Assembly: GCA_965203375.1 (NCBI GenBank)
Contig: OZ241886.1
Span: 2,431,249-2,495,248 of the forward strand
Source of the DNA: Candidatus Aldehydirespiratoraceae bacterium
GTDB lineage: Bacteria > Actinomycetota > Acidimicrobiia > Acidimicrobiales > Aldehydirespiratoraceae
Length of the DNA stretch: 64,000 nucleotides
Direction: 5' to 3'
Shown here in pieces: positions 9,098 to 62,877 of the stretch. The number at the start of each line of letters is the position of its first letter. Within the stretch, counting starts at the first letter, position 1. The translations under genes were made by a program, and so were the position numbers. The notes under the pieces are model-generated. The model had not been told where the DNA came from. It saw nothing but the letters and a program-made list of their open reading frames with translations, and searched no databases.

Positions 9098-9153
9098 CGG
9101 GTTTTCTGAGCAAAAATCGTCGCTATACGCCAACTATTTGCTCAGAAAAACAG
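9098..9153. terminator. long AT-rich inverted repeat, putative bidirectional terminator between convergent genes
   Basis: GTTTTCTGAGCAAA ... TTTGCTCAGAAAAAC perfect 14-bp stems (extended imperfectly by CCCCTCCCCC / GAGGGGG), in the only AT-rich patch locally. Confidence 0.4.
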
Positions 9154-9162
9154 AAGAGGGGG

Positions 9163-13518: not shown

Positions 13519-13766
13519 GAGCTGGTCGAGGTTGCCTCCGCCCCGCCGCCGCTTGTCCGGCCGGCGGGTCCTGTCACGGGCGCGGATTTCGCCGCGGAGG
13601 CGGCGAAATCCTTGCCCCCGTGCCACCCCCCGGCCTGGCGGATCGCCCGCGGGGGATTCGCCCTCCTGGAGCTGCTGGCCCTCTGGGAGCGGCTGGTCTT
13701 CCGTCGGCGGCTGGCCTTCTGGGAGTGGCTGATCCAGCGGTGAAGAGCCTTGTGAGGGAGGGGAGC

Positions 13767-14498: not shown

Positions 14499-14628
14499 AC
14501 TGAAAGGGTAAGCCGATCTCGCCTAGTTCAACCGAGTCGCGGAAAGCTCAATCCCGATCGGCCCAGAGTGGTCGCCAAAACGGCGCAGACCCAGCGTGCC
14601 GCGGTCGAAGTCGGCCTACCTCTCGCGC

Positions 14629-17037: not shown

Positions 17038-17052
17038 TGATCTCCTACCTCA

Positions 17053-26349: not shown

Positions 26350-27347
26350 GCCGCCCGCACCCTGGGGTCGAGCCACGAGTAGAGCAGGTCCACCACGAAG
26401 TTGACCACCACGAAGCCGACCGCGATCACCACCACCGCGGCCAGCACCACCGGGAAGTCGTCGCGGATCACCGCGGTGACGATCTCCCGGCCGATGCCGG
26501 GTATGCCGAAGATCTGCTCCACCACCAGCGAGCCCCCGATGAGGGTGCCGGTGTTGAGGCCGAACACGGTCACCATCGAGAACATGGAGGGCCGCAAGGC
26601 GTGGCGGAACATGATCCGGACCGGGGTGAGCCCCTTGGCCCGGGCCATGTGGACGAAGTCCTCTTGGAGGGTGGTGATGAGGTCGGTGCGCAGCAGCCGC
26701 TGGTAGGCGGCGGCCAGCGGCAGCCCCAGGGTGACCGCGGGCAGGATCAGCGACCGGAGCCGCACCAGCAGGCCGGCGTCGTCAAAGGCGGAGGGGAGGA
26801 CGCTCCAGCGCAGGGTGAACAGGTACAGCAGCACCACGCCCATGGCGAAGACCGGCACCGACAGCAGCCCGAAGGACCCGATGGTGGAGGCCCGGTCGAA
26901 GGAGCGGTTGGCCCGGTAGGCCGAGGCCACCCCCCAGGGGATGGATACCCCCAGCGCCACGGCCTGGGCCATGGCCATCAGCAGCAGCGACTCGGGGAAC
27001 TTCTCCCGGAGCACCTCGCCCACCGGCTGGTTGTTCTGGAACGAGGTGCCGAAGTCGCCCCGGATCAGATCGCCGAGCCACAGGAAGTAGCGGGGGGCCA
27101 GGGGTCGGTCGAGGTGGTATTCGGCCCTGGCCTCGGCGATTATCTCGCAGTCGCCCTTGGGGTTGAGCGACGTGGACCGGTCCTCGGCCGCGCCGGCGTA
27201 GACCTCGGTGCAGTCCTTCTCGGCCAGCGGGCCGACGATGTTGACCAAGGGGTCGCCCAGCACGTTCAGGGCCGCGAAGGCGGTGAAGGTGACGGCCAGA
27301 AGGACCAGCACCAGCATGGCTGCTCGCCGGGCCACGAACCCGGTCAC
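26346..27347 (-). CDS. peptide ABC transporter permease (DppB/OppB-like)
   Basis: typical DppB N-terminus and TM layout. Confidence 0.85.
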   Translation of the reverse strand: MTGFVARRAAMLVLVLLAVTFTAFAALNVLGDPLVNIVGPLAEKDCTEVYAGAAEDRSTSLNPKGDCEIIAEARAEYHLDRPLAPRYFLWLGDLIRGDFGTSFQNNQPVGEVLREKFPESLLLMAMAQAVALGVSIPWGVASAYRANRSFDRASTIGSFGLLSVPVFAMGVVLLYLFTLRWSVLPSAFDDAGLLVRLRSLILPAVTLGLPLAAAYQRLLRTDLITTLQEDFVHMARAKGLTPVRIMFRHALRPSMFSMVTVFGLNTGTLIGGSLVVEQIFGIPGIGREIVTAVIRDDFPVVLAAVVVIAVGFVVVNFVVDLLYSWLDPRVRAA

Positions 27348-27354
27348 GGCGACG

Positions 27355-27500
27355 GCCCCCGCCGGGCGAACCCGGTCCGGGCGACGAACCTGGTCACGGC
27401 GCTGACCGGGGCCGGGCGAACCCGGTCACGGCGACGGCCCCCGCCGGGCGAACCCGGTCACGGTGCTGACCCGGGCCGGGCGGACCGGGATGTGCCCGTC
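27355..27500. repeat. intergenic array of ~42-bp hairpin-containing repeats (x3.5) between SBP and permease genes
   Basis: GACCGGG-GCCGGGCGAA-CCCGGTC units at ~27362, 27404, 27446, 27478. Confidence 0.6.
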
Positions 27501-32763: not shown

Positions 32764-33324
32764 CTATTCCTCGAGCTCGTTCATGCCCTCGAGCTCGGGG
32801 GCCAGCCGGGTCACCAGCGCGACGCCGTCCTTGACCCCCACCACGATGACCCGGGCGCCCGCCTCGATCTCGCCGCCCTCGCCCTCGTCGACGGGGGCGG
32901 CGGTCATCCGGGCCTGCGACCCGCCGACGTCGAGCACGATCCGGCCCCGGTGTACCGATGAGACGGGCAGGGCCACCCGGGCGATGGTCCCCTCCAGCTC
33001 CTTGTCGGTCACCTCGCTGGACACCTCGGTGCGGCGGAGCCAGGCGAACACGGTGCTGTTGAGGACGCCGGCCACCACCCCGACGGCCAGGGCCAGGCCC
33101 AGCGCGGTCACCGGCCCCGAGCCGGCCCAGCGGGTCAGCAGCCCGGTGACGCCGAAGAAGGTGAGCACGAAGGCCAGGGTGCTCAAGGGGATGACCGACA
33201 TGACTCCGCCGCCGTCGCCGTCGGCGTCGGCGTTGCCGCCCAGGTCGGCGTCTCCCCCGCTGAAGGCGAACCACACCAGCAGCGGGGCCCCGGCCATCAG
33301 CGCGAAGAGGAACAGCCCGTTCAC
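32764..33324 (-). CDS. NfeD-like membrane protein (flotillin partner)
   Basis: TM helices plus C-terminal OB-like domain, immediately upstream of flotillin; GTG start after AGGAGA. Confidence 0.6.
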   Translation of the reverse strand: MNGLFLFALMAGAPLLVWFAFSGGDADLGGNADADGDGGGVMSVIPLSTLAFVLTFFGVTGLLTRWAGSGPVTALGLALAVGVVAGVLNSTVFAWLRRTEVSSEVTDKELEGTIARVALPVSSVHRGRIVLDVGGSQARMTAAPVDEGEGGEIEAGARVIVVGVKDGVALVTRLAPELEGMNELEE

Positions 33325-33367
33325 TCTCCTGAAGCTAGTGTCTGGCCGTGGATTCTGCTCGCCCAGT

Positions 33368-33505
33368 GCCTGAGTTCTCTGCTGTCTTCGGACTCGCCGT
33401 CCCGAGGCGGCGCCGTGAGTTCTCCGTGAGCCCCAGCCCCGTCGTCCCGGGGCGGCGCCGTGAGTCGTCGGTGGGCTTCGGACTCGCTTACCCGGCGGCG
33501 GCGCC
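33368..33505. repeat. ~46-bp imperfect tandem repeats (x3-4) each containing GTGAGT, running into the cyclase start codon
   Basis: units at 33370, 33415, 33460, 33506. Confidence 0.6.
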
Positions 33506-33509
33506 GTGA
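33426..33509 (+). CDS. candidate upstream mini-ORF (27 codons) whose TGA overlaps the cyclase GTG
   Basis: GTG 33426 ... TGA 33507-33509; preceded by a 4-codon ORF (33415-33429) with the same GTGA overlap. Confidence 0.3.
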   Translation: MSPSPVVPGRRRESSVGFGLAYPAAAP

Positions 33510-34468
33510 GTTTCAGCCCGGCTTTCTTCGAGGTCAGGGACCGGGTCCGCAACTGGGGGCGGTGGGGGGACGACGACCGGCTCGGCACCTTGAACCTGAT
33601 CGACGACGCGGCGGTGGCCCATGCCGCCTCGCTGGTGCGGTCCGGGCGGCGGGTGTCGTGCGCCCTGGAACTGAAGCACGAGGGCGGGGTGCAGATCGGG
33701 CAGATGCACGGCCGGATCAACCCGCTGCACGCCATGGTGAAGATCGACAGCCCCGACCTCGGCGACCCCGACGGCAAGGGGCTGGTCGCCCACTTCTCCG
33801 ACGACATCGTGACCATGGCTCTGCAGGCCGCCACCCACTGGGACGGGCTGTCCCACGTGAGCTACGAGCACACCCTCTACAACGGGGTGTCGGTCGACAC
33901 CATCACCGCGGTGGGCGGGGCCACGGTGCTGGGCATCGAGAACGTCCGCTGGCTGACCGGGCGGGGCGTGCTGCTGGACGTGGCCGCGGCCCGGGGGGTG
34001 GAGCGGCTGCCCAGCGACTGCGAGGTCACCGGGGCCGACCTCGACGAGGCGGCGGAGTTCGGGGGGGTGGAGATGCGGCCGGGCGACATCGTGCTGCTGC
34101 GGACCGGGCGGATGCAGGTGTTCCGCGAGATGGGGGCCACGGAGTACGTCGCCGGCCCCGACCGCGACGGCACCAGCCCCGGGCCGGGCCTGGACGCGGT
34201 GGAGTGGTTCCACCGCCGCGACGTGGCCGCCGTGGCCAACGACACCTACATCTTCGAGGCGTTCCCCGGCCCCAGATGGGACGACGCCCTGGCCGTTCAC
34301 TGCCTGCACGTGGTGGACATGGGCATGACCCAGGGCCAGAACTGGGACCTGGAGGAGCTGTCGGCAGCCTGCGCGGCCGAGGGCCGCTACGAGTTCCTGT
34401 TGGCCGCCAACCCCGAGCCGTTCGTCGGCGGCTGCGGCTCCCCAGTCAACCCGGTGGCGATCTTCTAA
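33506..34468 (+). CDS. cyclase family protein (kynurenine-formamidase-like fold)
   Basis: cyclase family (PF04199)-like sequence with His-rich metal-site residues; GTG start. Confidence 0.75.
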   Translation: MSFSPAFFEVRDRVRNWGRWGDDDRLGTLNLIDDAAVAHAASLVRSGRRVSCALELKHEGGVQIGQMHGRINPLHAMVKIDSPDLGDPDGKGLVAHFSDDIVTMALQAATHWDGLSHVSYEHTLYNGVSVDTITAVGGATVLGIENVRWLTGRGVLLDVAAARGVERLPSDCEVTGADLDEAAEFGGVEMRPGDIVLLRTGRMQVFREMGATEYVAGPDRDGTSPGPGLDAVEWFHRRDVAAVANDTYIFEAFPGPRWDDALAVHCLHVVDMGMTQGQNWDLEELSAACAAEGRYEFLLAANPEPFVGGCGSPVNPVAIF

Positions 34469-34617
34469 CCAGAGGTTGTTTCGGCGACGGGCTCGGCCGC
34501 CGACTCGCAGCTCGACCGCAGTCTCCTCGTGTCCGACCCACAGTGTCCGCCGAGTGGTGGGCTTTGCGGTAGCCGCAGGGGTCCGCCCCGAGTGGGCCAT
34601 CGGCGAGGTGTACGCTG

Positions 34618-35844
34618 GTGACAATGGGGGGAGGAGCCATCGGTGCCCAGATCCGGGGGCTGAGGGAGGCTGTGGGTTGCGAGCGATCGGCTCTGGCTGA
34701 GGCGCTGGGGCTCGATCCCGCCGAGATGGCGGAGATGGAGTTCGGCCGCCGGGCTGTCCGGGCGGAGGATGTCGCGGCCGCTGCTGAGTTCTTGGGCGTC
34801 TCACAACTGGCGATCCTGCAGCCGGGGTCGCTGCTCGGACGGCTCGCGGTGGCTGCCCGCACGAACGGTCACGGTGAACCGGACCGGGGGGCGGTGATGC
34901 GCCTGACGGCTCTGGCGGAACTGAGCCATGTGCTGACCCAAGGCGGCCACCCCCCTCCTCTTGCCCCGTCCGGCACCGACGGGGCACCTGAGGGTAAGCC
35001 GGGCCAGTCGTGGCTGAGCCGCGCTCGCGACCTGGCCGAATGGGCCGTCGGGCAGTTCGGCTCAGGTTGGAGGCAGGGCCACCCGCTGCCCGATCTGGCC
35101 GAAGCCATAGAGGACAGCCTGAGCGTTGATGTGATGGTGGAGGGCCTCGGCGGCACCGGGGCGCCGCTAGGCGTTTCCATAACCGACGCGGATTTCCCCT
35201 TCATCATGGTCAACGCCGATCAGCCCACCCCTCGGGCGCTGTTCTCCCTGGCCCACGAGTTGGGCCACGTTTTGAGCCGAGACGGCTACGCGCTGCGAAT
35301 CGACAACCACTTTCGGGCGCCCAACGACAGCGAACGGGCAGCCAACGCCTTCGCCGCCAGCCTGCTGATGCCCGAGGACGACGTGCGCCGCACCGTCGCC
35401 CAGCACGGTCGCACTGCCGAGTCTTTGGCCCGGATGCTCATTGACTTCGGTGTGAGCTATGAGTCGCTCATCTACCGGTTGCACAATCTGAGACTCATCA
35501 ACGCCAACGGCCGAGACCGTCTCAAAGCCGTGGGCTGGGCTGGCCTCATGAACGCCGTCAACGACGCCGGTGTCACCAAAGCGTTGCTCTCTGCTCGGGG
35601 CACTCGACCGGCGCGACGGCCTCCCATCCTGCTGGCGAGGCGATGTCTGCGCGGAGCGCTGGACGGAACGGTGAGCGCGGCCCCGCTGGCAAGGCTGCTC
35701 AACGCCGACATCGACGAAATAATCGACAAGATCGACTCGATAGGACCTGAATCCGCTGCCGCGATCAACGATAACTACTCGTCGCCACCCGATCCTGACG
35801 ATGTCGCCCACTCGGCTTTAGACGACGATCCCTTAGCCGTGTAG
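34618..35844 (+). CDS. XRE-family HTH fused to ImmA/IrrE-family zinc metallopeptidase
   Basis: HTH region IRGLREAVGCERSALAEALGL...; HEXXH as LAHELGHVL. Confidence 0.8.
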   Translation: MTMGGGAIGAQIRGLREAVGCERSALAEALGLDPAEMAEMEFGRRAVRAEDVAAAAEFLGVSQLAILQPGSLLGRLAVAARTNGHGEPDRGAVMRLTALAELSHVLTQGGHPPPLAPSGTDGAPEGKPGQSWLSRARDLAEWAVGQFGSGWRQGHPLPDLAEAIEDSLSVDVMVEGLGGTGAPLGVSITDADFPFIMVNADQPTPRALFSLAHELGHVLSRDGYALRIDNHFRAPNDSERAANAFAASLLMPEDDVRRTVAQHGRTAESLARMLIDFGVSYESLIYRLHNLRLINANGRDRLKAVGWAGLMNAVNDAGVTKALLSARGTRPARRPPILLARRCLRGALDGTVSAAPLARLLNADIDEIIDKIDSIGPESAAAINDNYSSPPDPDDVAHSALDDDPLAV

Positions 35845-35860
35845 GCCCGATCGGGCTTCG

Positions 35861-36424
35861 GTGGCGACGATGAAACCGGTGCTGCACGACGCGGTCACCT
35901 TGCGCCACTTTGCCGCTGTATCTAGAATCGATATTCTAGAAGCCCGGCACGGACAACGGCCGCCGCCTCTGTGGGCAGAAGCCGTGCATGAAGAAATACG
36001 ATCTGGCGTGGAAGCGGGCAACGCATACTGTTCTGATGTGCTTGAAGCCTCATGGCTTGGGAACCCTGCGCCTGTGCAAGAAGCCGACTTAGAGCCTATC
36101 TTCTTCTTACAGGTGGGCATAAATCAAGGTATCTATCCTCCCGATATGAAGCGTAACCGAGGAGAGGCAGAAAGCATCTATTTTGCTGAAAGACACGACG
36201 GACAATTCGCCACTGACGACAACGCGGCTTACAAGTTCGCCTGTCGGCGGCCTTCACTCGGCCCTGGCAGAGTGATCGACTCCATCGACATCTTAAGAAC
36301 CGCCGTCGCCCTAGGAGAGATCACCGCGACTGACGCCTTCACCGTCGCTGAAAACATAGAAGCAGAAGGGCGATTCTTCCGACCAGAACATCGCATCCCC
36401 AGAAAACCCAGCTACTTCACCTAA
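35861..36424 (+). CDS. hypothetical protein, possible PIN-like nuclease partner of ImmA/IrrE (DUF4411-like)
   Basis: 17 bp downstream of the ImmA/IrrE gene; low GC; N-terminal VLHDAVTLRHF strand and later acidic residues are compatible with a PIN fold; fold assignment is inference. Confidence 0.5.
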   Translation: MATMKPVLHDAVTLRHFAAVSRIDILEARHGQRPPPLWAEAVHEEIRSGVEAGNAYCSDVLEASWLGNPAPVQEADLEPIFFLQVGINQGIYPPDMKRNRGEAESIYFAERHDGQFATDDNAAYKFACRRPSLGPGRVIDSIDILRTAVALGEITATDAFTVAENIEAEGRFFRPEHRIPRKPSYFT

Positions 36425-37377
36425 GAGCATGCGCGGATTGCTCAGGGGTTTGGGTTCCAGCGGTTGCGGTGGTTGATGAGTTTGGCGGTGAGGATGCAGG
36501 CGATGGCGAGGGCGAGTTGGGCTCGTCGGTGGTGGGGACGGCGGTCGGTGTTGCGTCGGAGTTGCCCGAAGTTCGACAGCCATGAGTTGGTGCGTTCGAT
36601 GCTCCAGCGCCGGCCGAGGGGCACGGGCCGGGGCCCGGCGGCGCCTGGGGAGCGTCTTTGGGGGCAGGCGACGTCGGCGATGCCCGCGTCGGCGCACAGG
36701 CGGCGCGCAGTGGCGCTGTCATAGCCGCGGTCTAGGTGCAGGGTCTCGATGCCCTGGAGCAGTCCCCGCCGGCCGGCGGCTCGCAGGGTGGGTTCCAGCA
36801 GGGTCAGGTCACAGCGGTTGGCGCCGTCGAGCGCGGCTACGGCCGGTATGCCCCAACGGTCGGTCAAAAGCGACCACTTGAACCCGAGTTTGCCCCTGTC
36901 AACAGGGCTTTTGCCGGTTCCTTCGCCTCCGCAGGGGGCCTTGTGGATTGACCCGTCGATGCAGGCTTCGGTCAGGTCCAGCCCCACGATGCGGTCATAG
37001 GCCTCGACGGCTTCGTCTTCGAGGTCCTCGAACACCCCCGCGGCGATCCATTCGTCGCGGCGGGCCCGCATGGTGGTGTCAGACACCCGGCCCCCCAACA
37101 GCTTCTCCGCGGTGACCCATGAGCAGCCGGTGACCAGCCGGGTGAGCATCCCCCAAAAACAGATCCGGTCCGGGATCCGCGGCCTGTGCCCCCGGGTTGA
37201 GGGTCTCTGTGCCCGGACCGGGACCCGGGACTTGATCGCGGCCCACACCGCATCCACCACCTCAGGAACCAACGCGCGCATGATGTAGCCGGCCTCCACG
37301 GTCGTCTTGTTGCTGACACCCCGACATACAAGCCGGGACAACCAGACGACCCGTGGATGGTCAATCCGCGCGCGCTC
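36425..37377. mobile_element. IS5-family insertion sequence (IS1031-like), intact
   Basis: 16-bp terminal inverted repeats GAGCATGCGCGGATTG / CAATCCGCGCGCGCTC with 14/16 matches; 3-bp TAA direct repeats at 36422-36424 and 37378-37380. Confidence 0.8.
36442..37281 (-). CDS. IS5-family DDE transposase
   Basis: HLDRGYDS and RWSIERTNSWL motifs; ~280 aa single ORF. Confidence 0.8.
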   Translation of the reverse strand: MRALVPEVVDAVWAAIKSRVPVRAQRPSTRGHRPRIPDRICFWGMLTRLVTGCSWVTAEKLLGGRVSDTTMRARRDEWIAAGVFEDLEDEAVEAYDRIVGLDLTEACIDGSIHKAPCGGEGTGKSPVDRGKLGFKWSLLTDRWGIPAVAALDGANRCDLTLLEPTLRAAGRRGLLQGIETLHLDRGYDSATARRLCADAGIADVACPQRRSPGAAGPRPVPLGRRWSIERTNSWLSNFGQLRRNTDRRPHHRRAQLALAIACILTAKLINHRNRWNPNP

Positions 37378-37752
37378 TAAGCCGGGCGACATCGTGCTGC
37401 CGCAGAAGGCGGAAGCAGTAGCCGTGGATCGTGCCCACGAACAGGCCCCCGATCCGTGAGATGGCCACCTCGGTGCTTGACAGCGGCCAGTGCGTCGCCC
37501 TCCAGGGTTGGCACGTCCATCCGCTCATTGTGCCGGGAGGATGCTCTACCCGCCGCAGCCTCAAAGATTTTTCCGAACGGGCGTTGTGACTGTCACAGGG
37601 GTCTGATACATTGTCGCTACCGGTCGTGGAACCTCGCAGGCGGAATCGTCAGCGGGTTCCGGCGCTTCCCCGGACCGGTGAAATCGCCAGCGCAGGCCGG
37701 CCCCAGGACCGACCCGGCTCCTTCGGGAGTTGGGCTTGCGAGGAAGCGCAAC

Positions 37753-39090
37753 ATGTTCGAAGCATTCAAGACCTTCATCGACACACTGAACGGCTCCGAT
37801 GTGGGGGCCTTGGACCGGGCCGGGCTGGACGAAGCCGCCGGCTGGACCAAGCGGGCCCGCTCGGCCCTCGACGCCTACGAAGCCCGGCTGCTGACCGCCG
37901 CCAACCGGGCCTTCGACGGCGGCGCGGCCGGCGCCGAACTGATGCGAACCGCCGCCGGATGCTCCCAGCGCGAGGCCCGCCGCCGGGCCCGCCGAGCCGA
38001 AACCCTGGCCGACATGCCCGCCGTGGCCCAAGCCCTGTCGGATGGCGCCATCACCGCCGAACACGCCGACGCGTTGGTGAAGGCCGCCGAGGCCACCTCG
38101 ACAGCGGCGGTGGACGCCGACCCGTCCCTGCTGGCCAAGGCCGAGTCGCTGCCCGCCGATTTGGCCGCCCGAGAGGTCGCGGATTGGGCTCACCGCCGCC
38201 AATCCGAACAAGACCGCGAAGCCAAGCTCCGCCGCCAGCGGGCGCTGCGCAGCCACCGAACCTGGATCGACGCCGACGGCATGTTCAACACCAGAGGCCG
38301 CTTCGACCCCGTCACCGGCGCCAGCATCCGAGCCGTCATCGACGACACCGCCAACCGCCTCTACCGAACCGACGGAGGCCGAGACGGCGGCAACAAAATC
38401 CGCACCTGGGACCAGCGCAACGCCGACGCCCTAGCCGCCGCCCTAGGAGTGATCCCCACCCCCGTGACAGGACCCGCCGGCCGGGACAACCCGCAACCCG
38501 CCAGCCGAGATGAACACCAACTTGCCATCACGAACCGGCACGGCCCCAGCCTGCGCAACCAGATCCTCGTCATCGCCCACACCGACGCCATCACCGGCGC
38601 CGACCCCGACGCCCCCTGCGAAATCCCCGGAACCGGCCCCATACCCCGCTCTGAACTCGAACGGCTTGCCTGCGAGTCGGAATTGTTCGGAATCCTCTTC
38701 GACGGCCGCGGCCTGCCCCTATGGCACGGACGACGAACCCGAACCGTCACCCCCCAGCAATGGCGAACCCTGGTAGCCCGAGACCGCGGCTGCGTCCTCT
38801 GCGGCACCAACCCCTCCTACTGCCACGCCCACCACATCGTGCCATGGACCGCCCCCGCCGAAGGCCCCACCGACATCGACAACCTCGTGCTGGTCTGCAA
38901 CCGGCACCACCACCACATCCACCAACACCACCTCACCCTCACCCGCCACCCCGACGGCCACTGGACAACGGCCGACTCCAGCCACCGAAAACCCGCCCAC
39001 AGCAACCACCACAACAACGGCACGAGACCGGCTAGCCGCGACCACACTCCGGCAGCCAAGCCGCCAACCGGTATCAGAGCCGGACCATGA
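37753..39090 (+). CDS. DUF222 + HNH endonuclease (REP13E12-family-like)
   Basis: N-terminal DUF222-like region; C-terminal HNH (CVLCGTNPSYCHAHHIVPW...DNLVLVCNRHH). Confidence 0.8.
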   Translation: MFEAFKTFIDTLNGSDVGALDRAGLDEAAGWTKRARSALDAYEARLLTAANRAFDGGAAGAELMRTAAGCSQREARRRARRAETLADMPAVAQALSDGAITAEHADALVKAAEATSTAAVDADPSLLAKAESLPADLAAREVADWAHRRQSEQDREAKLRRQRALRSHRTWIDADGMFNTRGRFDPVTGASIRAVIDDTANRLYRTDGGRDGGNKIRTWDQRNADALAAALGVIPTPVTGPAGRDNPQPASRDEHQLAITNRHGPSLRNQILVIAHTDAITGADPDAPCEIPGTGPIPRSELERLACESELFGILFDGRGLPLWHGRRTRTVTPQQWRTLVARDRGCVLCGTNPSYCHAHHIVPWTAPAEGPTDIDNLVLVCNRHHHHIHQHHLTLTRHPDGHWTTADSSHRKPAHSNHHNNGTRPASRDHTPAAKPPTGIRAGP

Positions 39091-39127
39091 CCACCGAGGC
39101 CCCGGGGCCGGGTTTGGCAGCCGATCC

Positions 39128-39225
39128 GCCAGGCCGGGGGTGGCACGGGGGCAAGGTTTTTGCCGCCCCGCGGCGAAAACCGCGCCCGTGACAGGACCCG
39201 CCGGCCGGGACGAACGGCAACGACC
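39128..39225. repeat. ~110-bp dispersed repeat, copy A
   Basis: 5' box GCCAGGCCGGGGGTGGCACGGGGG, G(T)nGCCGC...GCGGC(A)nC hairpin, 3' box CCCGTGACAGGACCCGCCGGCCGGGACGA (also present inside the HNH gene at 38462-38490). Confidence 0.6.
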
Positions 39226-39302
39226 TACACGGAACAGCCGCCTCAGCCGGGACCAGCCCCCCGGCCGGAGCGGACAGCGGCCCGGCGGTTTAGTCTTGGC
39301 CC

Positions 39303-40265
39303 GTGAGCAGCAGCGTCGTCGCGGCTCCGGTGTGCGCCGATCCGGTGGCTTTGAACCTGTGGCATCCGGTGGCGGCGGTGACCGACACCGCCCCCGGCGT
39401 CGTGCATGAGACCCGGCTGCTCGAAGAGCCCCTGTCTTATGCGGTGACCGCCGGCGGCGAGGTCTGCGCCTGGCGGCCGGTCCCGCCGCTGGCGCCGGGC
39501 TCGCCGTTCGAGGCCGCCCCGGTGGCCGAGCCGCTTCCCGCCGTCACCCGGTACGGCTACCTCTGGGCCAGCTACGGCACACCGCCCGACAACCTCTTCG
39601 ACCTGCCCGAATTCCACGAACCCGACCGCCACAACGTCTGCGGCGCCACCATCGGAGTCCGCACCTCCGCCCCCCGGGCAGTGGAGAACTTCCTGGACAT
39701 GGGCCACTTCCCCTACGTCCACACCGGCTACCTCGGCATCGAGCCCCACACCGAGGTGGCCGACTACGACGTGAACCTGAGCCCCGACGGCTCACAGATC
39801 GTGGCCACCCGCTGCCAGTTCTTCCAGCCGATGGGCGCGGTCAACTCCTCCGGCGGAATGATGGTGGGCTACGTGTACCGGGTGCCCCACCCCTACTGCG
39901 CCATCCTCTACAAGTCAAACCCCCTCGACACCTCCCGCAGCGACGTCATAGCCCTCTTCTGCCAGCCAGTCGACGAAGTGACCATCCGGGCCCACATGCT
40001 GATGTCAATGCTCGACGACAGCGACCACCGGCTCATCAAATGGTTCCAATTGCTCATCTTCGGCCAAGACAAGCCCATCCTCGAAAACCAACACCCCCAA
40101 CGCCTGCCCCTGCACCCCCGAGCAGAAACACCAATCCGCGCCGACAAAATGGCCATCGCCTACCGGCGCTGGCTGACCGACATGGGCCTCGCCTACGGCG
40201 TCATCCCGGCCGAGGTGACAGGCAACGGGCACCGCGGCACCTGGCCGTTGCCGACCCGGAAGTGA
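39303..40265 (+). CDS. ring-hydroxylating-oxygenase alpha-subunit-like protein without recognisable Rieske ligands
   Basis: catalytic-domain-like ENFLDMGHFPYVHTGYLG; no CxH...CxxH in the N-terminal region. Confidence 0.5.
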   Translation: MSSSVVAAPVCADPVALNLWHPVAAVTDTAPGVVHETRLLEEPLSYAVTAGGEVCAWRPVPPLAPGSPFEAAPVAEPLPAVTRYGYLWASYGTPPDNLFDLPEFHEPDRHNVCGATIGVRTSAPRAVENFLDMGHFPYVHTGYLGIEPHTEVADYDVNLSPDGSQIVATRCQFFQPMGAVNSSGGMMVGYVYRVPHPYCAILYKSNPLDTSRSDVIALFCQPVDEVTIRAHMLMSMLDDSDHRLIKWFQLLIFGQDKPILENQHPQRLPLHPRAETPIRADKMAIAYRRWLTDMGLAYGVIPAEVTGNGHRGTWPLPTRK

Positions 40266-40282
40266 GACCCACAGCGAAAGCC

Positions 40283-41251
40283 GTGGTGAAACCCGCAACC
40301 GCGCCAGCCGCGGCCCCCACCCCGCTCGCCGGGGGGCCGGAGGTGGCCGTGGTGGGCAGCGCCAACCTGGATCTGGTGGTGGAGGTGGAGGCCGTCCCGG
40401 TGGCGGGCCAGACGGTGATGGGCGGCGACCTGGCCCGGATTCCCGGCGGCAAGGGGGCCAACCAGGCCGTGGCCGCGGCCCGGCTGGGCCGCCGGGTGGC
40501 CATGGTCGGGCGGGTCGGCGACGACGAGGCCGGGGCCATGCTGCGGGAGGCGCTGGCCGCCGCCGGGGTGGACGTCGCCTGCCTGCGGACTGCGCCCGGC
40601 GCCCCCAGCGGGGTGGCGCTCATCGCGGTGGCCGCCGACGGTGACAACGCCATAGTGGTCAGCCCCGGCGCCAACGGCCGGGTGGCCCGCGGCGACGTGA
40701 TCTCGGCCGGGTCGGTTCTGGCCCGGGCCAAGGTGACCCTGCTGCAGCTCGAGATCCCCCTCGACGCGGTGGCCGACGCGGCCTCGGCCTCGGCCGGGAC
40801 GGTGGTGCTGAACCCGGCCCCGGCCACTCCCCTGCCCGACGGCCTGCTCGAACGGGTGGACGTGCTGGTCCCCAACCAGACCGAGCTGGCCGCGCTGGTC
40901 GGCCACGACGGGCCGGTGGACGCCGAGGCGGCCGCCGCCCTGGCCCGCCAGCTCCCGACGGCCGCCGTGGTCGTCACCCTGGGGGCCGAGGGCGCGCTGG
41001 TGGTGGCCGACGGCGACGCCACCCTGGTGCCGGCGCCGCCGGTGACCCCCAAAGACACCACCGCAGCCGGCGACGCCTTCTGCGGCGCCTTGGCCGACGC
41101 GCTGGTGGACGGCGCCGATCTGGTGGAGGCAACCCGCTGGGCCGTGCGGGTGGGCGCGGCCGCCACTCTGCGCCCCGGCGCCCAGCCCTCGCTCCCCACC
41201 CGCCCCGAAGTAGACCGCCTACTAACAGAAGCCGCCAACGACCGTGCCTGA
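40283..41251 (+). CDS. rbsK: ribokinase (PfkB family)
   Basis: VAVVGSANLDLVV..., GGKGANQA, C-terminal DTTAAGDAF; GTG start just after previous stop. Confidence 0.8.
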   Translation: MVKPATAPAAAPTPLAGGPEVAVVGSANLDLVVEVEAVPVAGQTVMGGDLARIPGGKGANQAVAAARLGRRVAMVGRVGDDEAGAMLREALAAAGVDVACLRTAPGAPSGVALIAVAADGDNAIVVSPGANGRVARGDVISAGSVLARAKVTLLQLEIPLDAVADAASASAGTVVLNPAPATPLPDGLLERVDVLVPNQTELAALVGHDGPVDAEAAAALARQLPTAAVVVTLGAEGALVVADGDATLVPAPPVTPKDTTAAGDAFCGALADALVDGADLVEATRWAVRVGAAATLRPGAQPSLPTRPEVDRLLTEAANDRA

Positions 41252-41299
41252 ATGAGCTAAACCCGAGATGCGGCGGCAGAGGTGAGCGGTACGGGCTGC

Positions 41300-41743
41300 C
41301 TACTGTCGGTTCGGGTTGCGATCGAGCCAGATCTGGAGCGTTTCGGTGGTCCAAGTAGGCACGCCAGTACCCAGGTAGTCGTTGTCGTTGGTCCAGATAC
41401 CCGCCGACAGCACCAACGCGCAGGCGACCGCGGGCCAGTCGTCGGGGTCGCGCCGTGACCGGGCGAGAGCCTCGTCCTCGGCAGCGGCGTAGACGGCCTT
41501 GTCAATCACGGTGATGTTGGCTCGGACAGTCCCGAGGCAAATGGAGGTCAACTCTTCGACGATCTCGTATCGGAGCTGCCGAGCGCGCCCGAACGCTGCG
41601 GCCCGCCGGGGCAGTTCCACGGTTGTCTCAATCCACATCTGGTCAGGCAAGAACAATTCGAGCCGGTCATCCTCTAGACGTTGACGGCCCTTGACGCGAA
41701 GCAACTCGCCGACGAGCACGCTGGTGTCGACGACCAGTCGCAT
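41300..41743 (-). CDS. vapC: type II toxin VapC (PIN domain)
   Basis: MRLVVDTSVLVGELL N-terminus; ATG overlaps antitoxin stop (TGATG). Confidence 0.75.
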   Translation of the reverse strand: MRLVVDTSVLVGELLRVKGRQRLEDDRLELFLPDQMWIETTVELPRRAAAFGRARQLRYEIVEELTSICLGTVRANITVIDKAVYAAAEDEALARSRRDPDDWPAVACALVLSAGIWTNDNDYLGTGVPTWTTETLQIWLDRNPNRQ

Positions 41744-41985
41744 CAACACCAGCCGCGGGTTACCTCTTCGACCAACTCGTCTTCGTTGAGGCCGGTCCTG
41801 GCCAGGATGTCCTCGACCACATCGCCCAAACGCTCGAGAGCTTCCCGGCCAGCGCGTCGGTCTTTCGCCGAGATGGGGACGAAGAACCCGATGGGCTCGC
41901 CGCGGCGCTCTATGACAAGCATCTCTCCCGCGCTCATCATCCGCGTCGCCCCGTCTCTGAACTCTCTCACTCCGACGGTCCTCAT
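41743..41985 (-). CDS. Phd/YefM-family antitoxin
   Basis: MRTVGVREFRDGATRMM...; 80 aa; translationally coupled to vapC. Confidence 0.7.
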   Translation of the reverse strand: MRTVGVREFRDGATRMMSAGEMLVIERRGEPIGFFVPISAKDRRAGREALERLGDVVEDILARTGLNEDELVEEVTRGWC

Positions 41986-42072
41986 AGAACACTCCTCAAC
42001 GGTTGTGGTCACCAATGTAGCCACAACATGAATGTAACAGCGATGCCGGGTGATCCCGTTACTTGAATCCCA

Positions 42073-42185
42073 TGCGCCAGGCCGGGGGGTGGCACGGGGG
42101 TTAGCGTCGGCGCCGCTCGCGGCGACGACCGCCCCCGTGACAGGACCCGCCGGCCGGGACGATCCGCAACCGCCCGCGACGGACA
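42073..42185. repeat. ~110-bp dispersed repeat, copy B
   Basis: same 5' box, hairpin and 3' box as copy A. Confidence 0.6.
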
Positions 42186-42239
42186 ATCCCAGAAGTCGAA
42201 TCTCCGAGAGATCGGCGACCCGGCACCTAGGCTCAGACC

Positions 42240-43193
42240 ATGAGCGCTGGGTCTGGCGATCGGCCCCGGATGCTGCTCGACTGCGATCCGGGGCTCGACG
42301 ACGCCGTCGCCATCCTGACCGCCGCCCATTACGGCGACTTGGTGGGTATCACCACCGTCAGCGGGAACGTGGGGCTCGACCACACCACCCGCAACGCCCT
42401 GGCCGTCGCCGAACTCGCCGGACTCGACGTGCCGGTGCATCGGGGCGCGGCCCGGCCCCTGGTGGCCCCGGCCCAGGACGCGGCCCGCGTCCACGGACCC
42501 ACCGGGCTGGGCGACGCCGTCCTGCCCGAGCCCGTCCGGTCGGCCGGCCCCGGAAGTGCCGCCGACTTCATATCCGAGACGGCCCGGACGGTCGACGGCC
42601 TTCACCTGGTGGCGATCGGCCCGTTCACCAACGTGGCGCTGGCGCTGCGCAACGACCCCGACTTGGCCGGGCATCTGGACGGGATCACCGTCATGGGCGG
42701 GTCGGCCGCCGGCGGCAATGTCACCGCGGCCGCCGAGTTCAACGTCTGGGCCGACCCCGAGGCGGCCGCCATCGTCTTCGCCGACGCCGCCCCGACCACC
42801 CCGGTCACCATGGTCGGGCTCGACGCCACCGGCCAGGTGCTGTTCGGCCCGCCCGAGGCCGACCGGATGCGGGCTTCGGGCATCCCGGCGGCCGCCTTGG
42901 CCGCCGACTTGGTGGACTACGCCCACCGGCGGTGCCTGGAGGCCGGGCGCCCGGCCACCCCCCTGCACGACGCGGTGGCCGTCATCGCCGTCACCCATCG
43001 GGGCCTGTTCACCACATCGCGCCGCCCGGTGGAGGTGGAACTGCGGGGCGAGCACACCCGGGGCATGACCGTGGTGGACGACCGTCCCGGTGCCGAGGGC
43101 ACAGGAGCCTGCGACGTGGTGCGCGAAGTTCAAGCCGACCGGGTCAAAGAACTCATAATCGAGGCGGTGACCGCAGCGCCAGCCACCCCGTAG
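42240..43193 (+). CDS. nucleoside hydrolase (IUNH family)
   Basis: LLDCDPGLDDAVAIL aspartate cluster. Confidence 0.85.
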   Translation: MSAGSGDRPRMLLDCDPGLDDAVAILTAAHYGDLVGITTVSGNVGLDHTTRNALAVAELAGLDVPVHRGAARPLVAPAQDAARVHGPTGLGDAVLPEPVRSAGPGSAADFISETARTVDGLHLVAIGPFTNVALALRNDPDLAGHLDGITVMGGSAAGGNVTAAAEFNVWADPEAAAIVFADAAPTTPVTMVGLDATGQVLFGPPEADRMRASGIPAAALAADLVDYAHRRCLEAGRPATPLHDAVAVIAVTHRGLFTTSRRPVEVELRGEHTRGMTVVDDRPGAEGTGACDVVREVQADRVKELIIEAVTAAPATP

Positions 43194-60719: not shown

Positions 60720-60751
60720 CCTCCGATCAACCTGCTCATCCCCCACCTGCA

Positions 60752-62868
60752 ATGACCGACCACCAGAGCCGTAAATTCAAAATGCTCTTGCTGAGATGTC
60801 CGTGGCTGACTTGCGCACTGTTTGCGGGAATCGCGTTCGTCCATAACAATACCCCCCCCCGCAGGATGCGGTCCAGACCGCTCAAGCGGCGACACCGTCC
60901 AAGACGATGACACAAGATTCGGCTAAATTAGTGGGATCAGTTGCCTCAGTTGAGGATGATCAAGGTTCGAATAAGGGCTCGATAGTTTTGTCATGGTCTA
61001 ATCCTGGTAATCCTTCAATCACTCATTATCAGTATCAATTCAGAAGTGCATCAGAGGTAGGATACGGTCCGTGGATTGATATTCCTGACAGCAGAGCGTC
61101 CACTACTGAATATACCATCACCGGCCTTAGAACCAATGCAATATATAATGTAAGACTTAGAGCCTGTAAGAGATCTGTATGTTGGGATTTCAGTAGTTTA
61201 TGGCATGTAAGAGTCTGTGAAATGACCGAATCGACCAAATGTGAAGTTACTGCGATAGGCTACCCAGTGATCGCGCCAACTGTTCCCCCTCCACCTGGTT
61301 TCTGGTTCTCAGACGATGACGGCAGCCGCCATGAGGGGGCCATTGAAGCTCTCGCGGCCGCGAGAATCGCATCTGGGTGCGGACGGCACCTTTATTGCCC
61401 CGCTGAGGAGACGACCCGGGGCCAGTTCGCCTCGCTGTTGGCGCGGGCCTTCCCCGACTTGGTCCCCGACTACACCGGAGACTTCTTCGGCGACGACAAC
61501 GGCAGCGTCCACGAGGCCGACATCAACAGGCTGGCCGCAGTGGAGATCGCGGCCGGCTGCGGGCCGAGCCGGTTCTGCCCCGACGACCCGATACGGCGCG
61601 ACCAAGCGGCGACGCTGCTGGCCCGGGCCCTCCCCGGCCTGGCTCCGCCCGAACGGGATCACTTCTCCGACGACGACGGCAGCATCCACGAGATCGCCGT
61701 CAACGCCATGGCCGAAAACGGCATCCTCGCCGGCTGCGGGCCGAGCCGGTTCTGCCCCGACGACCCGATACGGCGCGACCAGGCCGCGACCCTGCTCGCC
61801 CGGGTCCTCAACCTGAATCGGGCCGAACCTCAACTAAGCCTGTGGCGGCTCGAGCTAGTGGCCGACGGGATTGTCGGCGGCGTCACCGACCTGCAGGCCC
61901 CCATCGGCGACGACCGGGCATTTCTGGCCACCAGACGAGGGATGATCCGTGTGATGGCCGACGGCGCCCTTTTACCCGGGCCATTCCTCGACTTGACCAG
62001 TAAAATCTCAGGGGGCCTGTTCGGGCTGGCCTTCCACCCCCGCTACGACACCAACGGCAAGTTCTACGTCTTCTATATTGCCTTAGACGGCAACATCCGA
62101 ATATACGAGTACCGGGCCGACTCCGAGAACCCCAACCGGGCCGATCCTTCGACCGCCCGCCACATCGTCACCATAGAGCGAGACACAAGTACTCACCACG
62201 GAGGGCAGCTCCAATTCGGTCCTGATGGCTACCTATACATCGGCATCGGTGACAACAACAACCCCGAAAGCAGTCAGAATTTGCAAACCGCGCATGGGAC
62301 CATCCTCCGCATAGATGTAGACAACGGTGAACCCTACTCCATCCCTGCCGATAACCCCTTCGCCGACGGCCAAGATGGCCTACCTGAAGTGTGGGCCTAC
62401 GGGCTGCGCCATCCTTGGCGATTCAGCTTCGACGGCCCCAATATCTACATCGCCGACGTGGGAGATGTCCACATTGAGGAGATCAACATCGCCAAGGCTT
62501 CCCAGGGTGGAATAAACTACGGCTCGCCGGTCATGGACGGCTCCATATGCGTCAGTCCAACCTCAAACTGCGCCGGGCTGTTCACTCCTCAAATCGAATA
62601 CTACCATGCCCAGGGTTTTGCCGTCATCGGCGGCTACGTATACCGAGGCACTGCCTTACCTGAAATGGTCGGCCGATACTTCTACTCCGACTACACCGGC
62701 GCATGGATCCGCACATTCCTCTACAACGACGACGGCGAGGTGACAGAGCACTACGACTGGTCCTCAGCAGTCGAAAACGTCGCGCAGATGCAGTCATTCG
62801 GCAAAGACGGCCACGGAGAGCTCTACGTGCTGACCGGCTACGCCGTCTACAAGATCGTCCCCCGCTAG
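60752..62868 (+). pseudogene. surface protein paralog 3, interrupted by a frameshift at a C9 homopolymer (60852-60860)
   Basis: N-terminal TM segment (60752-60860) and body (ATG 60907 onward) lie in different frames; a C10 tract would restore a full-length reading frame homologous to paralog 1. Confidence 0.6.
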
Positions 62869-62877
62869 CCTCAGCCC

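What the first reader, a model, noticed from the sequence alone, without database searches (positions are those of the whole stretch)
37753..42190. REP13E12-like DUF222-HNH gene and two ~110-bp derived repeats bracketing a 3-kb block
The 27-bp core CCCGTGACAGGACCCGCCGGCCGGGAC occurs inside the HNH gene (38462) and again at 39190 and 42140. The latter two are each preceded by GCCAGGCCGGGGG(G)TGGCACGGGGG and a G(T)n-GCCGC...GCGGC-(A)nC hairpin. The two full repeats flank oxygenase-like, rbsK and vapBC genes. In mycobacteria the REP13E12 family (DUF222-HNH) provides phage attachment sites, so these may be decayed gene copies, att-like sites, or a MITE-like repeat family.
Basis: partly seen in the sequence, partly recalled or inferred. 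Interest (0 to 1): 0.55.

Follow-up and report, generated by a model that had tools for sequence, protein, structure and literature searches.

The report
Dispersed hairpin repeats beside HNH gene
The two repeats are ordinary members of a large family of about 85-base hairpin-forming repeats scattered through the genomes of Acidimicrobiia and some other soil and marine bacteria; they do not mark a movable gene block, but in this lineage they cluster strikingly around a poorly understood multi-copy nuclease gene.

Summary
The 27-mer is exact at 38461, 39185 and 42134 (0 expected by chance).

The repeats are not decayed HNH gene copies and not locus-specific. They belong to a REP-like family found in Acidimicrobiia (at least 22 blocks of 8 kb in one 3.27 Mb MAG), Solirubrobacterales and some Acidobacteriota. 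Each copy folds on one strand into two near-invariant GC helices, an invariant GG/ACAGG internal loop and a freely varying apical hairpin. No Rfam family matches.

Copies A and B and the genes between them are present at the same sites in relative L090. L091 shows A and the first two genes before its contig ends. So the repeats do not delimit a variable block. Copy C is orthologous in three relatives.

The copy inside the gene is the 3' half of an element translated in frame in the disordered DUF222-HNH linker. Sister strain L091 has the whole element there. In-frame copies also sit in nuoG and a Wzy-like gene, as with Rickettsia palindromic elements.

In this lineage DUF222-HNH genes are multi-copy, and many are bracketed by inverted copies of the element. 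This suggests, but does not prove, an HNH-based analogue of REP-RAYT.

The parts
37753..39090 (+). DUF222-HNH (13E12-family) nuclease gene, 445 aa
   Evidence: Pfam DUF222 E 2.4e-23; HNH 22.2 bits against a cut-off of 21.4. The AlphaFold model has a confident helical N-domain (aa 1-230) and a disordered linker at aa 240-270. The family is multi-copy: 328 and 451 homologues were found for the two subfamilies.
38461..38487 (+). In-gene core: the 3' half of an element, translated in frame as PVTGPAGRD (aa 237-245), followed by a tail and a degenerate partial repeat up to about 38515
   Evidence: Exact 27-mer. L091, the orthologous gene in a sister strain, has 159 extra nucleotides ending exactly at the 5' edge of this core; they supply the 5' box and hairpin. 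Of the 120 best homologues, 45 carry the full in-frame element, 21 carry the core only and 54 carry none.
39128..39211 (+). Full element A (5' box, apical hairpin GGTTTTTGCCGC/GCGGCGAAAACC, core), 38 nt after the HNH stop codon
   Evidence: Covariance-model hit of 81.1 bits, E 5.3e-13. RNA fold -59.4 kcal/mol, z -4.4. Present at the same site in L090 and L091; in L090 it has a different apical hairpin and a different right flank.
42076..42160 (+). Full element B (different apical hairpin), between the antitoxin gene (-) and the nucleoside hydrolase gene (+)
   Evidence: Covariance-model hit of 82.3 bits, E 3.2e-13. Fold -61.4 kcal/mol, z -4.0. Present at the same site in L090.
42161..42190 (+). 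Tail of element B (GATCCGCAACCG) plus a degenerate second core (CCCGCGACGGAC)
   Evidence: Read directly from the sequence. The same layout, full element then tail then extra core, is seen in L036, L059, L060, L001 and L034.
13554..13639 (-).
   Evidence: Covariance-model hit of 91.2 bits, E 7e-15. Fold -64.6 kcal/mol, z -5.8. Orthologous full copies occur in L139 and L141; only the 3' half remains at this site in MAG CATQHS (L143).
37568..37752 (+). Conserved upstream region of the HNH unit, including the palindrome GTGACTGTCAC (about 37588-37598)
   Evidence: DNA homology with paralogue L036 begins at window position 37568. Similar CTGTCAC-containing leaders precede DUF222-HNH genes of other lineages. 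Its function is inferred only.

Best explanation
What it is. A, B and C are three members of a large family of REP-like palindromic elements, about 85 nt long and sometimes followed by a 15-40 nt tail. On one strand each folds into a long hairpin with four parts.
- Helix P1: (GG)CCGG[G/C/T]GGGT paired with ACCCGCCGG(CC).
- An invariant asymmetric internal loop, GG opposite ACAGG.
- Helix P2: C[A/G][C/T]GGG.. paired with ..CCCGTG.
- An apical hairpin that is free to vary in sequence and length.

The copy in the gene. It is the 3' half of an element that sits in frame in the disordered linker of the DUF222-HNH protein.

Age and stability (shown). The copies in this window are old and vertically inherited. 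They do not bound a mobile block.

How it most likely works (inferred). The elements are non-autonomous hairpin DNA that multiplied through a structure-specific nuclease acting in trans on the conserved helix-loop-helix module. They are kept uniform, and their apical hairpins shuffled, by break-induced gene conversion among copies. Breaks would fall preferentially at the junction between the hairpin and the core.

The candidate enzyme (inferred). In this lineage the best candidate is the DUF222-HNH nuclease itself. Its multi-copy gene units are bounded by inverted copies of the element, the way RAYT transposase genes are flanked by REPs.

Confidence. About 0.85 that this is a dispersed REP/RPE-like family and not a block boundary. 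About 0.3 that the HNH protein is the enzyme acting on it.
For: Dispersal. Hits include at least 22 blocks of 8 kb in Acidimicrobiales MAG CATQHS010000001.1, at least 10 blocks in one Ca. Aldehydirespirator MAG, and many Solirubrobacterales and Acidobacteriota MAGs. Nearly all have the matching 5' box. A reciprocal scan of JGI metagenomes with the 5' box gave 47 matches, 44 of them followed by the canonical core.

Structure.
- 99% of cells are paired in P1 and P2, against 36-52% when the partner columns are slid.
- Nearly all one-sided changes give wobble pairs: AU to GU in 10 sequences, CG to UG in 6, against 4 mismatched cells. So the structure forms on the element's own strand.
- The top strand folds better than the bottom strand: -59 to -65 kcal/mol, z -4 to -5.8.
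- Apical stems show compensatory changes: GGTTTTTGCCGC/GCGGCGAAAACC, GGATTTCGCCGC/GCGGCGAAATCC and GGGTTTTGCCGC/GCGGCAAAACCC.

Not a block boundary. L090 keeps A, B and all the genes between them. L091 keeps A and the first two genes before its contig ends.

Old and vertically inherited.
- Site C is occupied in L139 and L141, and by a 3' remnant in CATQHS.
- Orthologous copies are 96-100% conserved, while their immediate flanks are 72-89% conserved.

In-frame copies. They occur in the HNH gene, in NuoG and in a Wzy_C-like gene, always in the frame PVTGPAGR.

Gene conversion and breakpoints.
- Element A has one apical hairpin in the window and L091 and another in L090. The L090 hairpin is identical to the one inside the L091 gene.
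- The in-gene indel ends exactly at the 5' edge of the core.
- Extra cores start at CCCGTG in six loci.

Link to HNH.
- 12 of 22 core-containing blocks of CATQHS hold a DUF222-HNH gene, 11 distinct genes in all.
- Five subfamily-2 units share 77-82% identity; in those that keep an upstream copy (L059, L034, L085) the homology runs from that inverted upstream element to the downstream element, while L079 lacks the upstream copy and L001 and L085 are cut by the block end.
- The same layout is seen in another genome, L094.
- In M. tuberculosis, REP13E12 loci are among the most frequently gene-converted loci (PMC13061034).
Against: No transposition event, empty site or target-site duplication was found. 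Every copy that could be compared between relatives is orthologous, so present-day mobility is not shown.

The HNH link is specific to one lineage.
- In sponge/marine Acidimicrobiia, 42 element-bearing metagenome loci (332 kb) hold a single HNH homologue, and it lies 5 kb from the element.
- None of the Aldehydirespirator blocks has an HNH gene.
- More distant DUF222-HNH genes (L092, L093) and one subfamily-2 gene (L096) have no such element.

In CATQHS the copies next to HNH genes are mostly of one hairpin type, and the solo copies are mostly of other types.

The strong conservation at orthologous sites could equally reflect a host function of the RNA or DNA.

HNH enzymes are not known to act as transposases.
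Confidence: 0.6

Rival explanations
1. The element is a structured RNA (or a protein-binding DNA site) with a host function. It might stabilise mRNA 3' ends, act as a processing site, or bind a conserved protein through the GG/ACAGG loop. On this view the HNH genes merely accumulate next to it.
For: The module is invariant across classes and in some Acidobacteriota. Orthologous copies are conserved more than their flanks. Nearly all one-sided changes give wobble pairs on one strand. Location is biased towards gene 3' ends and convergent intergenic regions: 14 convergent against 4 divergent cases. These features are also reported for transcribed REPs (PMC3733652).
Against: No Rfam family matches. 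There are tens of copies per genome, in either orientation relative to the neighbouring genes. Copies also occur inside open reading frames, as tandem arrays (L029) and as truncated halves. This is not the behaviour of a single-purpose RNA gene. The elements have no U-tract and are not called as terminators.
Confidence: 0.2
2. The DUF222-HNH genes are homing-type selfish genes that use a pre-existing repeat family as landing pads or portable homology. The element would be the target of the HNH units, not something they mobilise.
For: HNH genes are multi-copy and lie next to elements. Elements are abundant in genomes and loci with no HNH gene nearby. REPs are known targets of some insertion sequences (general knowledge).
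Against: The HNH genes are flanked by complete elements in a constant inverted arrangement, not by split halves. Homology between paralogues includes the elements, which are of one hairpin type. So the elements are copied together with the gene rather than met afresh at each site.
Confidence: 0.15
3. The two repeats are attachment or recombination sites (att- or attC-like) that delimit a 3 kb mobile cassette carrying the oxygenase, rbsK and vapBC genes.
For: A and B are direct repeats in the same orientation with an identical 27-nt core. The hairpin, with an internal loop and a variable tip, superficially resembles an integron attC site. [quoted passage not shown]
Against: The block and both repeats are conserved in L090. 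L091 shows A and the first two genes before its contig ends. There is no integrase or recombinase in the block. The same repeat occurs next to unrelated housekeeping genes in many genomes. The attC R-box triplets AAC and GTT are absent (sequence). B separates functionally linked PfkB and nucleoside hydrolase genes.
Confidence: 0.03
4. The repeats are decayed fragments of former DUF222-HNH gene copies.
For: They share the 27-nt core and about 15 nt of tail with the gene.
Against: Nothing else in the gene matches the repeats. The 5' box and hairpin are absent from the window's gene. The shared segment lies in a hypervariable, disordered linker in which the element is polymorphic among close homologues. 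The element occurs in taxa and loci with no HNH gene.
Confidence: 0.02

Closest known systems
REP / REPIN elements with RAYT transposases (Proteobacteria)
   Same: Short hairpin-forming repeats in tens to hundreds of copies. They are mostly intergenic, with a bias to gene 3' ends and convergent regions, frequent G-T pairing and occasional copies inside genes (PMC3733652). They persist for a long time by vertical inheritance. The associated enzyme gene is flanked by inverted copies of the repeat (PMC3337134 and PMC3116915, listed; flanking stated in the abstract of PMC3733652).
   Different: This element is longer (about 85 nt against 20-40 nt). It has two invariant helices, an invariant internal loop and a variable tip. 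It has no consistent GTAG or CGTC tag. No Y1/HUH transposase was seen near it. The associated gene is a DUF222-HNH nuclease present in many diverged copies, not a single-copy RAYT. Solo hairpins, not inverted doublets, are the common form.
Rickettsia palindromic elements (RPE)
   Same: Palindromic repeats of about 100 nt that are found in frame inside protein-coding genes as well as between genes (general knowledge; MITE review PMC10969869, listed). Here the host genes are HNH, NuoG and a Wzy_C-like gene, always in one frame.
   Different: The sequence and the hosts are unrelated (high-GC Actinomycetota). The architecture differs. No enzyme partner is known for RPEs.
REP13E12 / 13E12 repeat family of Mycobacterium tuberculosis (DUF222-HNH genes)
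   Same: The window's gene has the same domain architecture, DUF222 plus HNH. It is also multi-copy within a genome and lies in recombination-prone loci (PMC13061034).
   Different: No small hairpin element has been described with the mycobacterial repeats, and this could not be checked here. No phage integration is seen at this locus. More distant homologues (L092, L093) carry other tandem repeats and not this element.
Integron attC sites
   Same: A single-strand hairpin with two conserved paired boxes, an unpaired central region and a variable terminal structure.
   Different: There is no AAC/GTT core, no integrase, no cassette array, and copies occur in both orientations and inside genes.
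IscB with its omega RNA (HEARO)
   Same: An HNH nuclease encoded next to a conserved structured non-coding element. The HNH domain gives its only NCBIfam hit to IscB.
   Different: The hit is 24.9 bits against a cut-off of 175 and covers the HNH domain only. There is no RuvC domain. Rfam's HEARO model does not match. The element is dispersed as solo copies with no recognisable guide segment.

Membership tests
REP / REPIN-RAYT system | Short imperfect palindrome present in many dispersed copies, mostly extragenic | tested here: met
   Three copies in 64 kb. At least 22 core-bearing 8 kb blocks in one 3.27 Mb MAG. Hairpin supported by 99% pairing.
REP / REPIN-RAYT system | Conserved GTAG (or CGTC) tetranucleotide at one end | tested here: not met
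   No GTAG. The complement of GACG follows the core in A and B but not in C or in most other copies.
REP / REPIN-RAYT system | A RAYT (Y1/HUH transposase) gene flanked by the repeats | tested here: not met
   No such family appeared among the recurrent neighbours. The flanked gene is DUF222-HNH. Whole genomes could not be searched.
REP / REPIN-RAYT system | Inverted doublets (REPINs) as the replicating unit | tested here: not met
   Most copies are single hairpins. Inverted pairs were seen only around HNH genes and around an IS3 remnant in L065.
Rickettsia palindromic elements (behaviour only) | In-frame insertion of the palindrome in protein-coding genes | tested here: met
   HNH gene (L036, L081, L091), NuoG (L007, L043, L047) and a Wzy_C-like gene (L042, L053, L082).
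MITE (classical) | Terminal inverted repeats with target-site duplication, related to an autonomous IS with a known transposase | tested here: inconclusive
   The whole element is one palindrome. No target-site duplication or empty site was found. The only candidate autonomous unit carries an HNH nuclease, which is not a known transposase.
13E12 / REP13E12 protein family | DUF222 (PF02720) N-terminal domain followed by an HNH nuclease domain | tested here: met
   DUF222 83.4 bits (cut-off 24.4); HNH 22.2 bits (cut-off 21.4); HNH_2 22.8 bits (cut-off 21).
13E12 / REP13E12 protein family | Serves as a phage attachment site (phiRv1 in M. tuberculosis) | not tested
   No prophage or integrase lies next to the gene in the window. 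The mycobacterial attB could not be compared with these tools.
Integron attC | R''/R' boxes with AAC...GTT, an IntI integrase, and a cassette array in one orientation | tested here: not met
   The triplets are absent from the paired boxes. There is no integrase. Copies occur in both orientations and within genes.
Intrinsic terminator | GC-rich hairpin followed by a U-tract | tested here: not met
   No terminator-like site was called at A or B. The elements also occur inside open reading frames.
Any Rfam 15 RNA family | Score at or above the family's gathering threshold | tested here: not met
   No match in the window. Only tRNAs matched in 18 loci. The best sub-threshold hits were microRNA models with E about 1.
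IscB / omega RNA (RNA-guided HNH nuclease) | RuvC plus HNH nuclease with a PLMP domain and an adjacent omega RNA | tested here: not met
   NCBIfam guided_IscB scored 24.9 bits against a cut-off of 175, over the HNH domain only. The PDB phmmer search gave only an IscB HNH stretch at E 0.3.

The most novel reading that the evidence does not exclude
The DUF222-HNH (13E12-family) nuclease is the dedicated enzyme of this hairpin element. It would recognise the invariant helix, GG/ACAGG loop and helix module, nick or cut at the junction between hairpin and core, and so drive copying and gene conversion of both the solo hairpins and its own gene units, which are bounded by inverted copies. This would be an HNH-based counterpart of the REPIN-RAYT partnership. 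It would give the first mechanistic explanation for why REP13E12-type loci are multi-copy and recombination-prone, including in M. tuberculosis.
Probability: 0.25. Interest if true: 0.8.

Novelty: new variant of a known kind. Interest (0 to 1): 0.55.

Why it matters
REP-like repeats are among the most abundant non-coding features of bacterial genomes. A dedicated enzyme, the RAYT transposase, is known only for the GTAG class. PMC3733652 states that CGTC REPs lack one.

This family has four features worth attention:
- its module is conserved nearly base for base across Acidimicrobiia, Solirubrobacterales and some Acidobacteriota;
- no Rfam family matches it;
- copies can sit in frame inside conserved genes such as nuoG;
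- in one lineage it is physically tied to the uncharacterised DUF222-HNH (13E12) family.

If the nuclease acts on the hairpin, this would be a new enzyme class for repeat propagation. It would also give a testable hypothesis for the REP13E12 gene-conversion hot spots of M. tuberculosis.

If there is no such link, the family is still useful. It needs masking in annotation and assembly of these high-GC MAGs, because it creates spurious long ORFs and in-frame insertions, and it can serve as a lineage marker.

Tried and rejected
Searches that found nothing useful.
- Rfam at gathering threshold on the window and on 18 loci, and at E <= 10 on element A: only tRNAs and chance microRNA hits.
- JGI metagenome search for relatives of the subfamily-2 HNH protein: none.
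- Sequence search of the PDB: only an IscB HNH stretch at E 0.3.
- Foldseek of the AlphaFold model against the PDB: nothing below E 0.8, so the DUF222 domain has no solved relative.
- PADLOC: only marginal generic endonuclease hits.
- Exact look-ups of a window protein and of P0147: not on record.
- Terminator and promoter scan: nothing at A or B.

Ideas tested and dropped.
- A recurrent partner gene next to the elements in other taxa. The recurrent neighbours are housekeeping genes (nuo operon, rplU/obg, gamma-glutamyltranspeptidase and others).
- The inverted pair in L065 as a deletion derivative of an HNH unit. It encloses what reads as an IS3-type transposase remnant (judged by eye, no domain search).
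- An unbiased look at variation in the 3' strand, by scanning with the 5' box. The core proved as invariant as the box, so no new covariation was gained.
- The CTGTCAC motif shared between the element's loop and the conserved leaders of DUF222-HNH genes, as a possible common binding site. It is too short to be significant and is kept only as a lead.
- An RNA-guide reading, with the element as a scaffold for an HNH-only nuclease. No evidence for it was found.

Method caveat. My crude GC3-based calls of flanking-gene strand are approximate.

Full report
OBSERVATION

The 27-mer CCCGTGACAGGACCCGCCGGCCGGGAC is exact at 38461, 39185 and 42134 on the + strand. A fourth match, with 3 mismatches, lies at 13554-13580 on the minus strand. 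None is expected in shuffled sequence.

The gene at 37753-39090 is DUF222 plus HNH. The genes that follow are VanA_C-like (39303-40265), PfkB (40286-41251), a PIN_2 toxin and its antitoxin on the minus strand (41300-41988), and a nucleoside hydrolase (42240-43193).

Aligning the copies shows that the minus-strand match is a third complete repeat. It also shows that the gene shares only the core and a short tail with the repeats. A covariance model built from related copies finds exactly three full elements in the window: A at 39130-39208, B at 42078-42157 and C at 13557-13637 on the minus strand. All score E <= 5e-13, and nothing else scores below E 0.009.

ANATOMY

The 5' box is the pairing partner of the core, so each repeat is one long hairpin.
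- Helix P1: (GG)CCGGNGGGT pairs with ACCCGCCGG(CC).
- Internal loop: GG opposite ACAGG.
- Helix P2: CACGGG(GG) pairs with (CC)CCCGTG.
- Apical hairpin: differs between A, B and C.

The top strands fold at -59 to -65 kcal/mol (z -4.0 to -5.8). This is better than the complementary strands, which fold at -51 to -59 kcal/mol.

I aligned 42 diverse copies from other genomes. In P1 and P2, 99% of cells are paired, against 36-52% when the partner columns are slid. The top two pairs of P2 show changes on both sides. Nearly all one-sided changes give wobble pairs: A-U to G-U in 10 sequences and C-G to U-G in 6, against four mismatched cells (C opposite C, at two P1 positions). This puts the structure on the element's own strand, as RNA or as single-stranded DNA.

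There is a caveat. The copies were collected with the exact 3' strand as the query, so the invariance of that strand is partly imposed. A reciprocal scan with the 5' box returned the same invariant core in 44 of 47 matches.

Apical stems of one subtype differ by compensatory changes: GGTTTTTGCCGC/GCGGCGAAAACC, GGATTTCGCCGC/GCGGCGAAATCC and GGGTTTTGCCGC/GCGGCAAAACCC.

No Rfam family matches. No terminator-like site is called at A or B.

DISTRIBUTION

The hits include:
- 22 blocks of 8 kb of one 3.27 Mb Acidimicrobiales MAG, CATQHS010000001.1;
- at least 10 blocks of one Ca. Aldehydirespirator MAG;
- other Acidimicrobiia;
- many Solirubrobacterales;
- several Acidobacteriota/Vicinamibacterales MAGs.

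All of these have the same P1-loop-P2 module, with apical parts of 30 to 70 nt. The window itself is not from any of these genomes. Its closest relatives are metagenome scaffolds at 91-97% identity.

Neighbouring genes are mostly housekeeping genes: the nuo operon, rplU/obg, gamma-glutamyltranspeptidase and others. A crude strand call on the flanks gives 14 convergent and only 4 divergent contexts. This is the pattern reported for REPs (PMC3733652).

Some copies lie in frame within genes, always reading PVTGPAGR through the core. The host genes are NuoG (three genomes), a Wzy_C-like protein (three genomes, plus a core-only remnant in a fourth) and the HNH genes. This is the behaviour known from Rickettsia palindromic elements.

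IS THE 3 kb BLOCK MOBILE? NO.

Two relatives were recovered through homologues of the HNH protein.
- L090 (91-92% identity) has HNH, A, VanA_C, PfkB, PIN, antitoxin, B and IunH in the same order, with both elements in place.
- L091 (95-97% identity) has HNH, A, VanA_C and PfkB up to the end of its contig.

Site C is likewise occupied in L139 and L141. In the more distant CATQHS genome only the 3' half of the element remains at that site.

At two sets of orthologous sites in other Acidimicrobiia, the element is 96-100% conserved while its immediate flanks are 72-89% conserved.

So these copies are old and vertically inherited. They are held constant either by selection or by concerted evolution.

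THE COPY INSIDE THE GENE

The core is translated as aa 237-245, at the start of the linker that the AlphaFold model predicts as disordered (pLDDT below 50 for aa 240-270; about 30-40 on average over aa 241-270).

In L091 the orthologous gene has 159 extra nucleotides. They end exactly at the 5' edge of the core and contain the 5' box and a hairpin. So L091 has a complete in-frame element where the window and L090 have only the 3' half.

Among the 120 best homologues, 45 contain the full element in frame, 21 contain only core peptides and 54 contain neither. The gene copy is therefore a remnant of an element inside the gene. It is not the source of the repeats.

SIGNS OF RECOMBINATION AMONG COPIES

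- Element A has one apical hairpin in the window and L091, but another hairpin and another right flank in L090. The L090 hairpin is identical to the one inside the L091 gene.
- Many copies are followed, 15-40 nt downstream, by a second core that starts exactly at CCCGTG. Examples are L036, L059, L060, L001, L034 and L062, and B in the window in degenerate form.
- A 39-40 nt unit of core plus tail can be repeated in tandem, both in DNA (L079) and in proteins (PVTGPAGRDNPQ repeats).
- Truncated copies that keep only the 3' half recur: the window's gene, L057, L089 and L143.

THE HNH CONNECTION

In CATQHS, 12 of the 22 core-bearing blocks contain a DUF222-HNH gene, 11 distinct genes in all. If roughly 13-20 such genes were spread evenly over the 409 blocks, about 5% of blocks would contain one.

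There are two subfamilies.

Subfamily 2 is 36-39% identical to the window protein.
- It forms units of about 2.2 kb, in this order: an inverted element, an AT-rich promoter region with a palindrome, the gene, a CAACC-rich tail, then a direct element with extra cores.
- In the units that keep an upstream copy, homology (77-82%) runs from element to element. Of the five units, L059 and L034 show both flanking elements. L085 and L001 are cut by the block end. L079 has no upstream copy.
- The same layout occurs in another genome (L094). It is partial in L095 and absent in L096.

Subfamily 1, the window's type, carries the element inside the gene (L036, L081, L060, L015) or just downstream of it (window, L022).

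Each genome of this lineage holds many diverged paralogues of both subfamilies.

Against a general link:
- 42 element-bearing loci from marine/sponge metagenomes (332 kb) contain one distant HNH homologue, 5 kb from the element;
- no Aldehydirespirator block has an HNH gene;
- more distant DUF222-HNH genes have other tandem repeats and not this element.

The protein itself gives no further clue. The HNH domain resembles that of IscB only weakly (24.9 bits against a cut-off of 175). The DUF222 domain has no solved structural relative.

I found no published mechanism for DUF222-HNH. In M. tuberculosis, REP13E12 loci are among the most frequently gene-converted loci (PMC13061034).

INTERPRETATION

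Shown:
- a new REP/RPE-like family of hairpin elements;
- three ordinary members of it in this window;
- an in-frame remnant in the HNH gene;
- no mobile block.

Inferred:
- the family spread as non-autonomous hairpin DNA;
- it is homogenised by gene conversion, with breaks near the junction of hairpin and core;
- in this lineage the DUF222-HNH nuclease, whose gene units are bounded by inverted copies, is the best candidate for the enzyme. I put this at about 0.3.

Rivals:
- a host-functional structured RNA or DNA site (about 0.2);
- HNH genes that merely home to the repeats (about 0.15);
- att sites or cassette boundaries, and decayed gene copies (both contradicted).

VERDICT

Novelty: a new variant of a known kind. 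Interest is moderate, and would be higher if the HNH link proves functional.

Noticed in passing
window 36425-37377: A 953-nt IS5-family insertion sequence (DUF4096 plus DDE_Tnp_1 transposase on the minus strand). Its terminal inverted repeats are GAGCATGCGCGGATTG and GAGCGCGCGCGGATTG, and it is flanked by a TAA duplication (36422-36424 and 37378-37380). It sits just upstream of the HNH unit. It is absent from the otherwise 95-97% identical relative L091, so the insertion is recent.
   Followed up: yes
L090 1-9760, compared with window 33000-37400 and L091 1951-5374: Synteny breaks immediately upstream of the HNH gene. L090 has a restriction-modification-like island there (ResIII helicase, N6_N4 methyltransferase, UvrD/PDDEXK nuclease). 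The window and L091 have cyclase and HTH-Peptidase_M78 genes instead. The HNH unit therefore lies at the edge of a variable region. L090 also has 169 extra nucleotides between the HNH stop codon and element A.
   Followed up: partly
window about 37588-37598; L059 about 600-630; L092 and L093 about 4960-4990: DUF222-HNH genes of several lineages share a conserved leader containing CTGTCAC. In the window it is the perfect palindrome GTGACTGTCAC. In subfamily 2 it is followed by a -10-like TAGAGT a few bases before the ATG, which suggests a leaderless mRNA. The same heptamer, as its complement GTGACAG, spans the P2/loop junction of the element. It is too short to be significant, but it could be a common binding site.
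   Followed up: partly
window 9174-9544 (wider array 9084-9713): A perfect tandem array of a 30-nt unit, 12.4 copies at 100% identity, with degenerate copies on both sides. It is probably a repeat within a coding region.
   Followed up: no
window 56300-64000 and 14600-18900: There are four tandem copies of a unit of about 2.2-2.4 kb (73-90% identical) at the right end of the window, and two copies of a unit of about 2.4 kb (82-89% identical) at 14.6-18.9 kb. These are probably tandem paralogous genes of about 800 aa.
   Followed up: no
L029 3235-3514 (Ca. Aldehydirespirator MAG): Three complete elements lie in a head-to-tail array with a period of exactly 100 nt and identical 20-nt spacers. 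L113 and L116 show internal partial duplications of an element. The family can therefore amplify locally in tandem.
   Followed up: no
L092 6690-6900; L093 6870-7100: More distant DUF222-HNH genes are followed by their own unrelated tandem repeats. L092 has units of about 47 nt; L093 has G-rich units of 16-17 nt. Repeat arrays on the 3' side may be a general feature of this gene family.
   Followed up: no
L094 2150-2330: Two sequences that read as tRNA genes (judged by eye, not run through ARAGORN) lie between the upstream inverted element and the subfamily-2 HNH gene in this genome.
   Followed up: no
window 27327-27486: A short array of 32-nt and 50-nt repeats (CGAACCCGGTCACGGCG...). It is unrelated to the element.
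   Followed up: no
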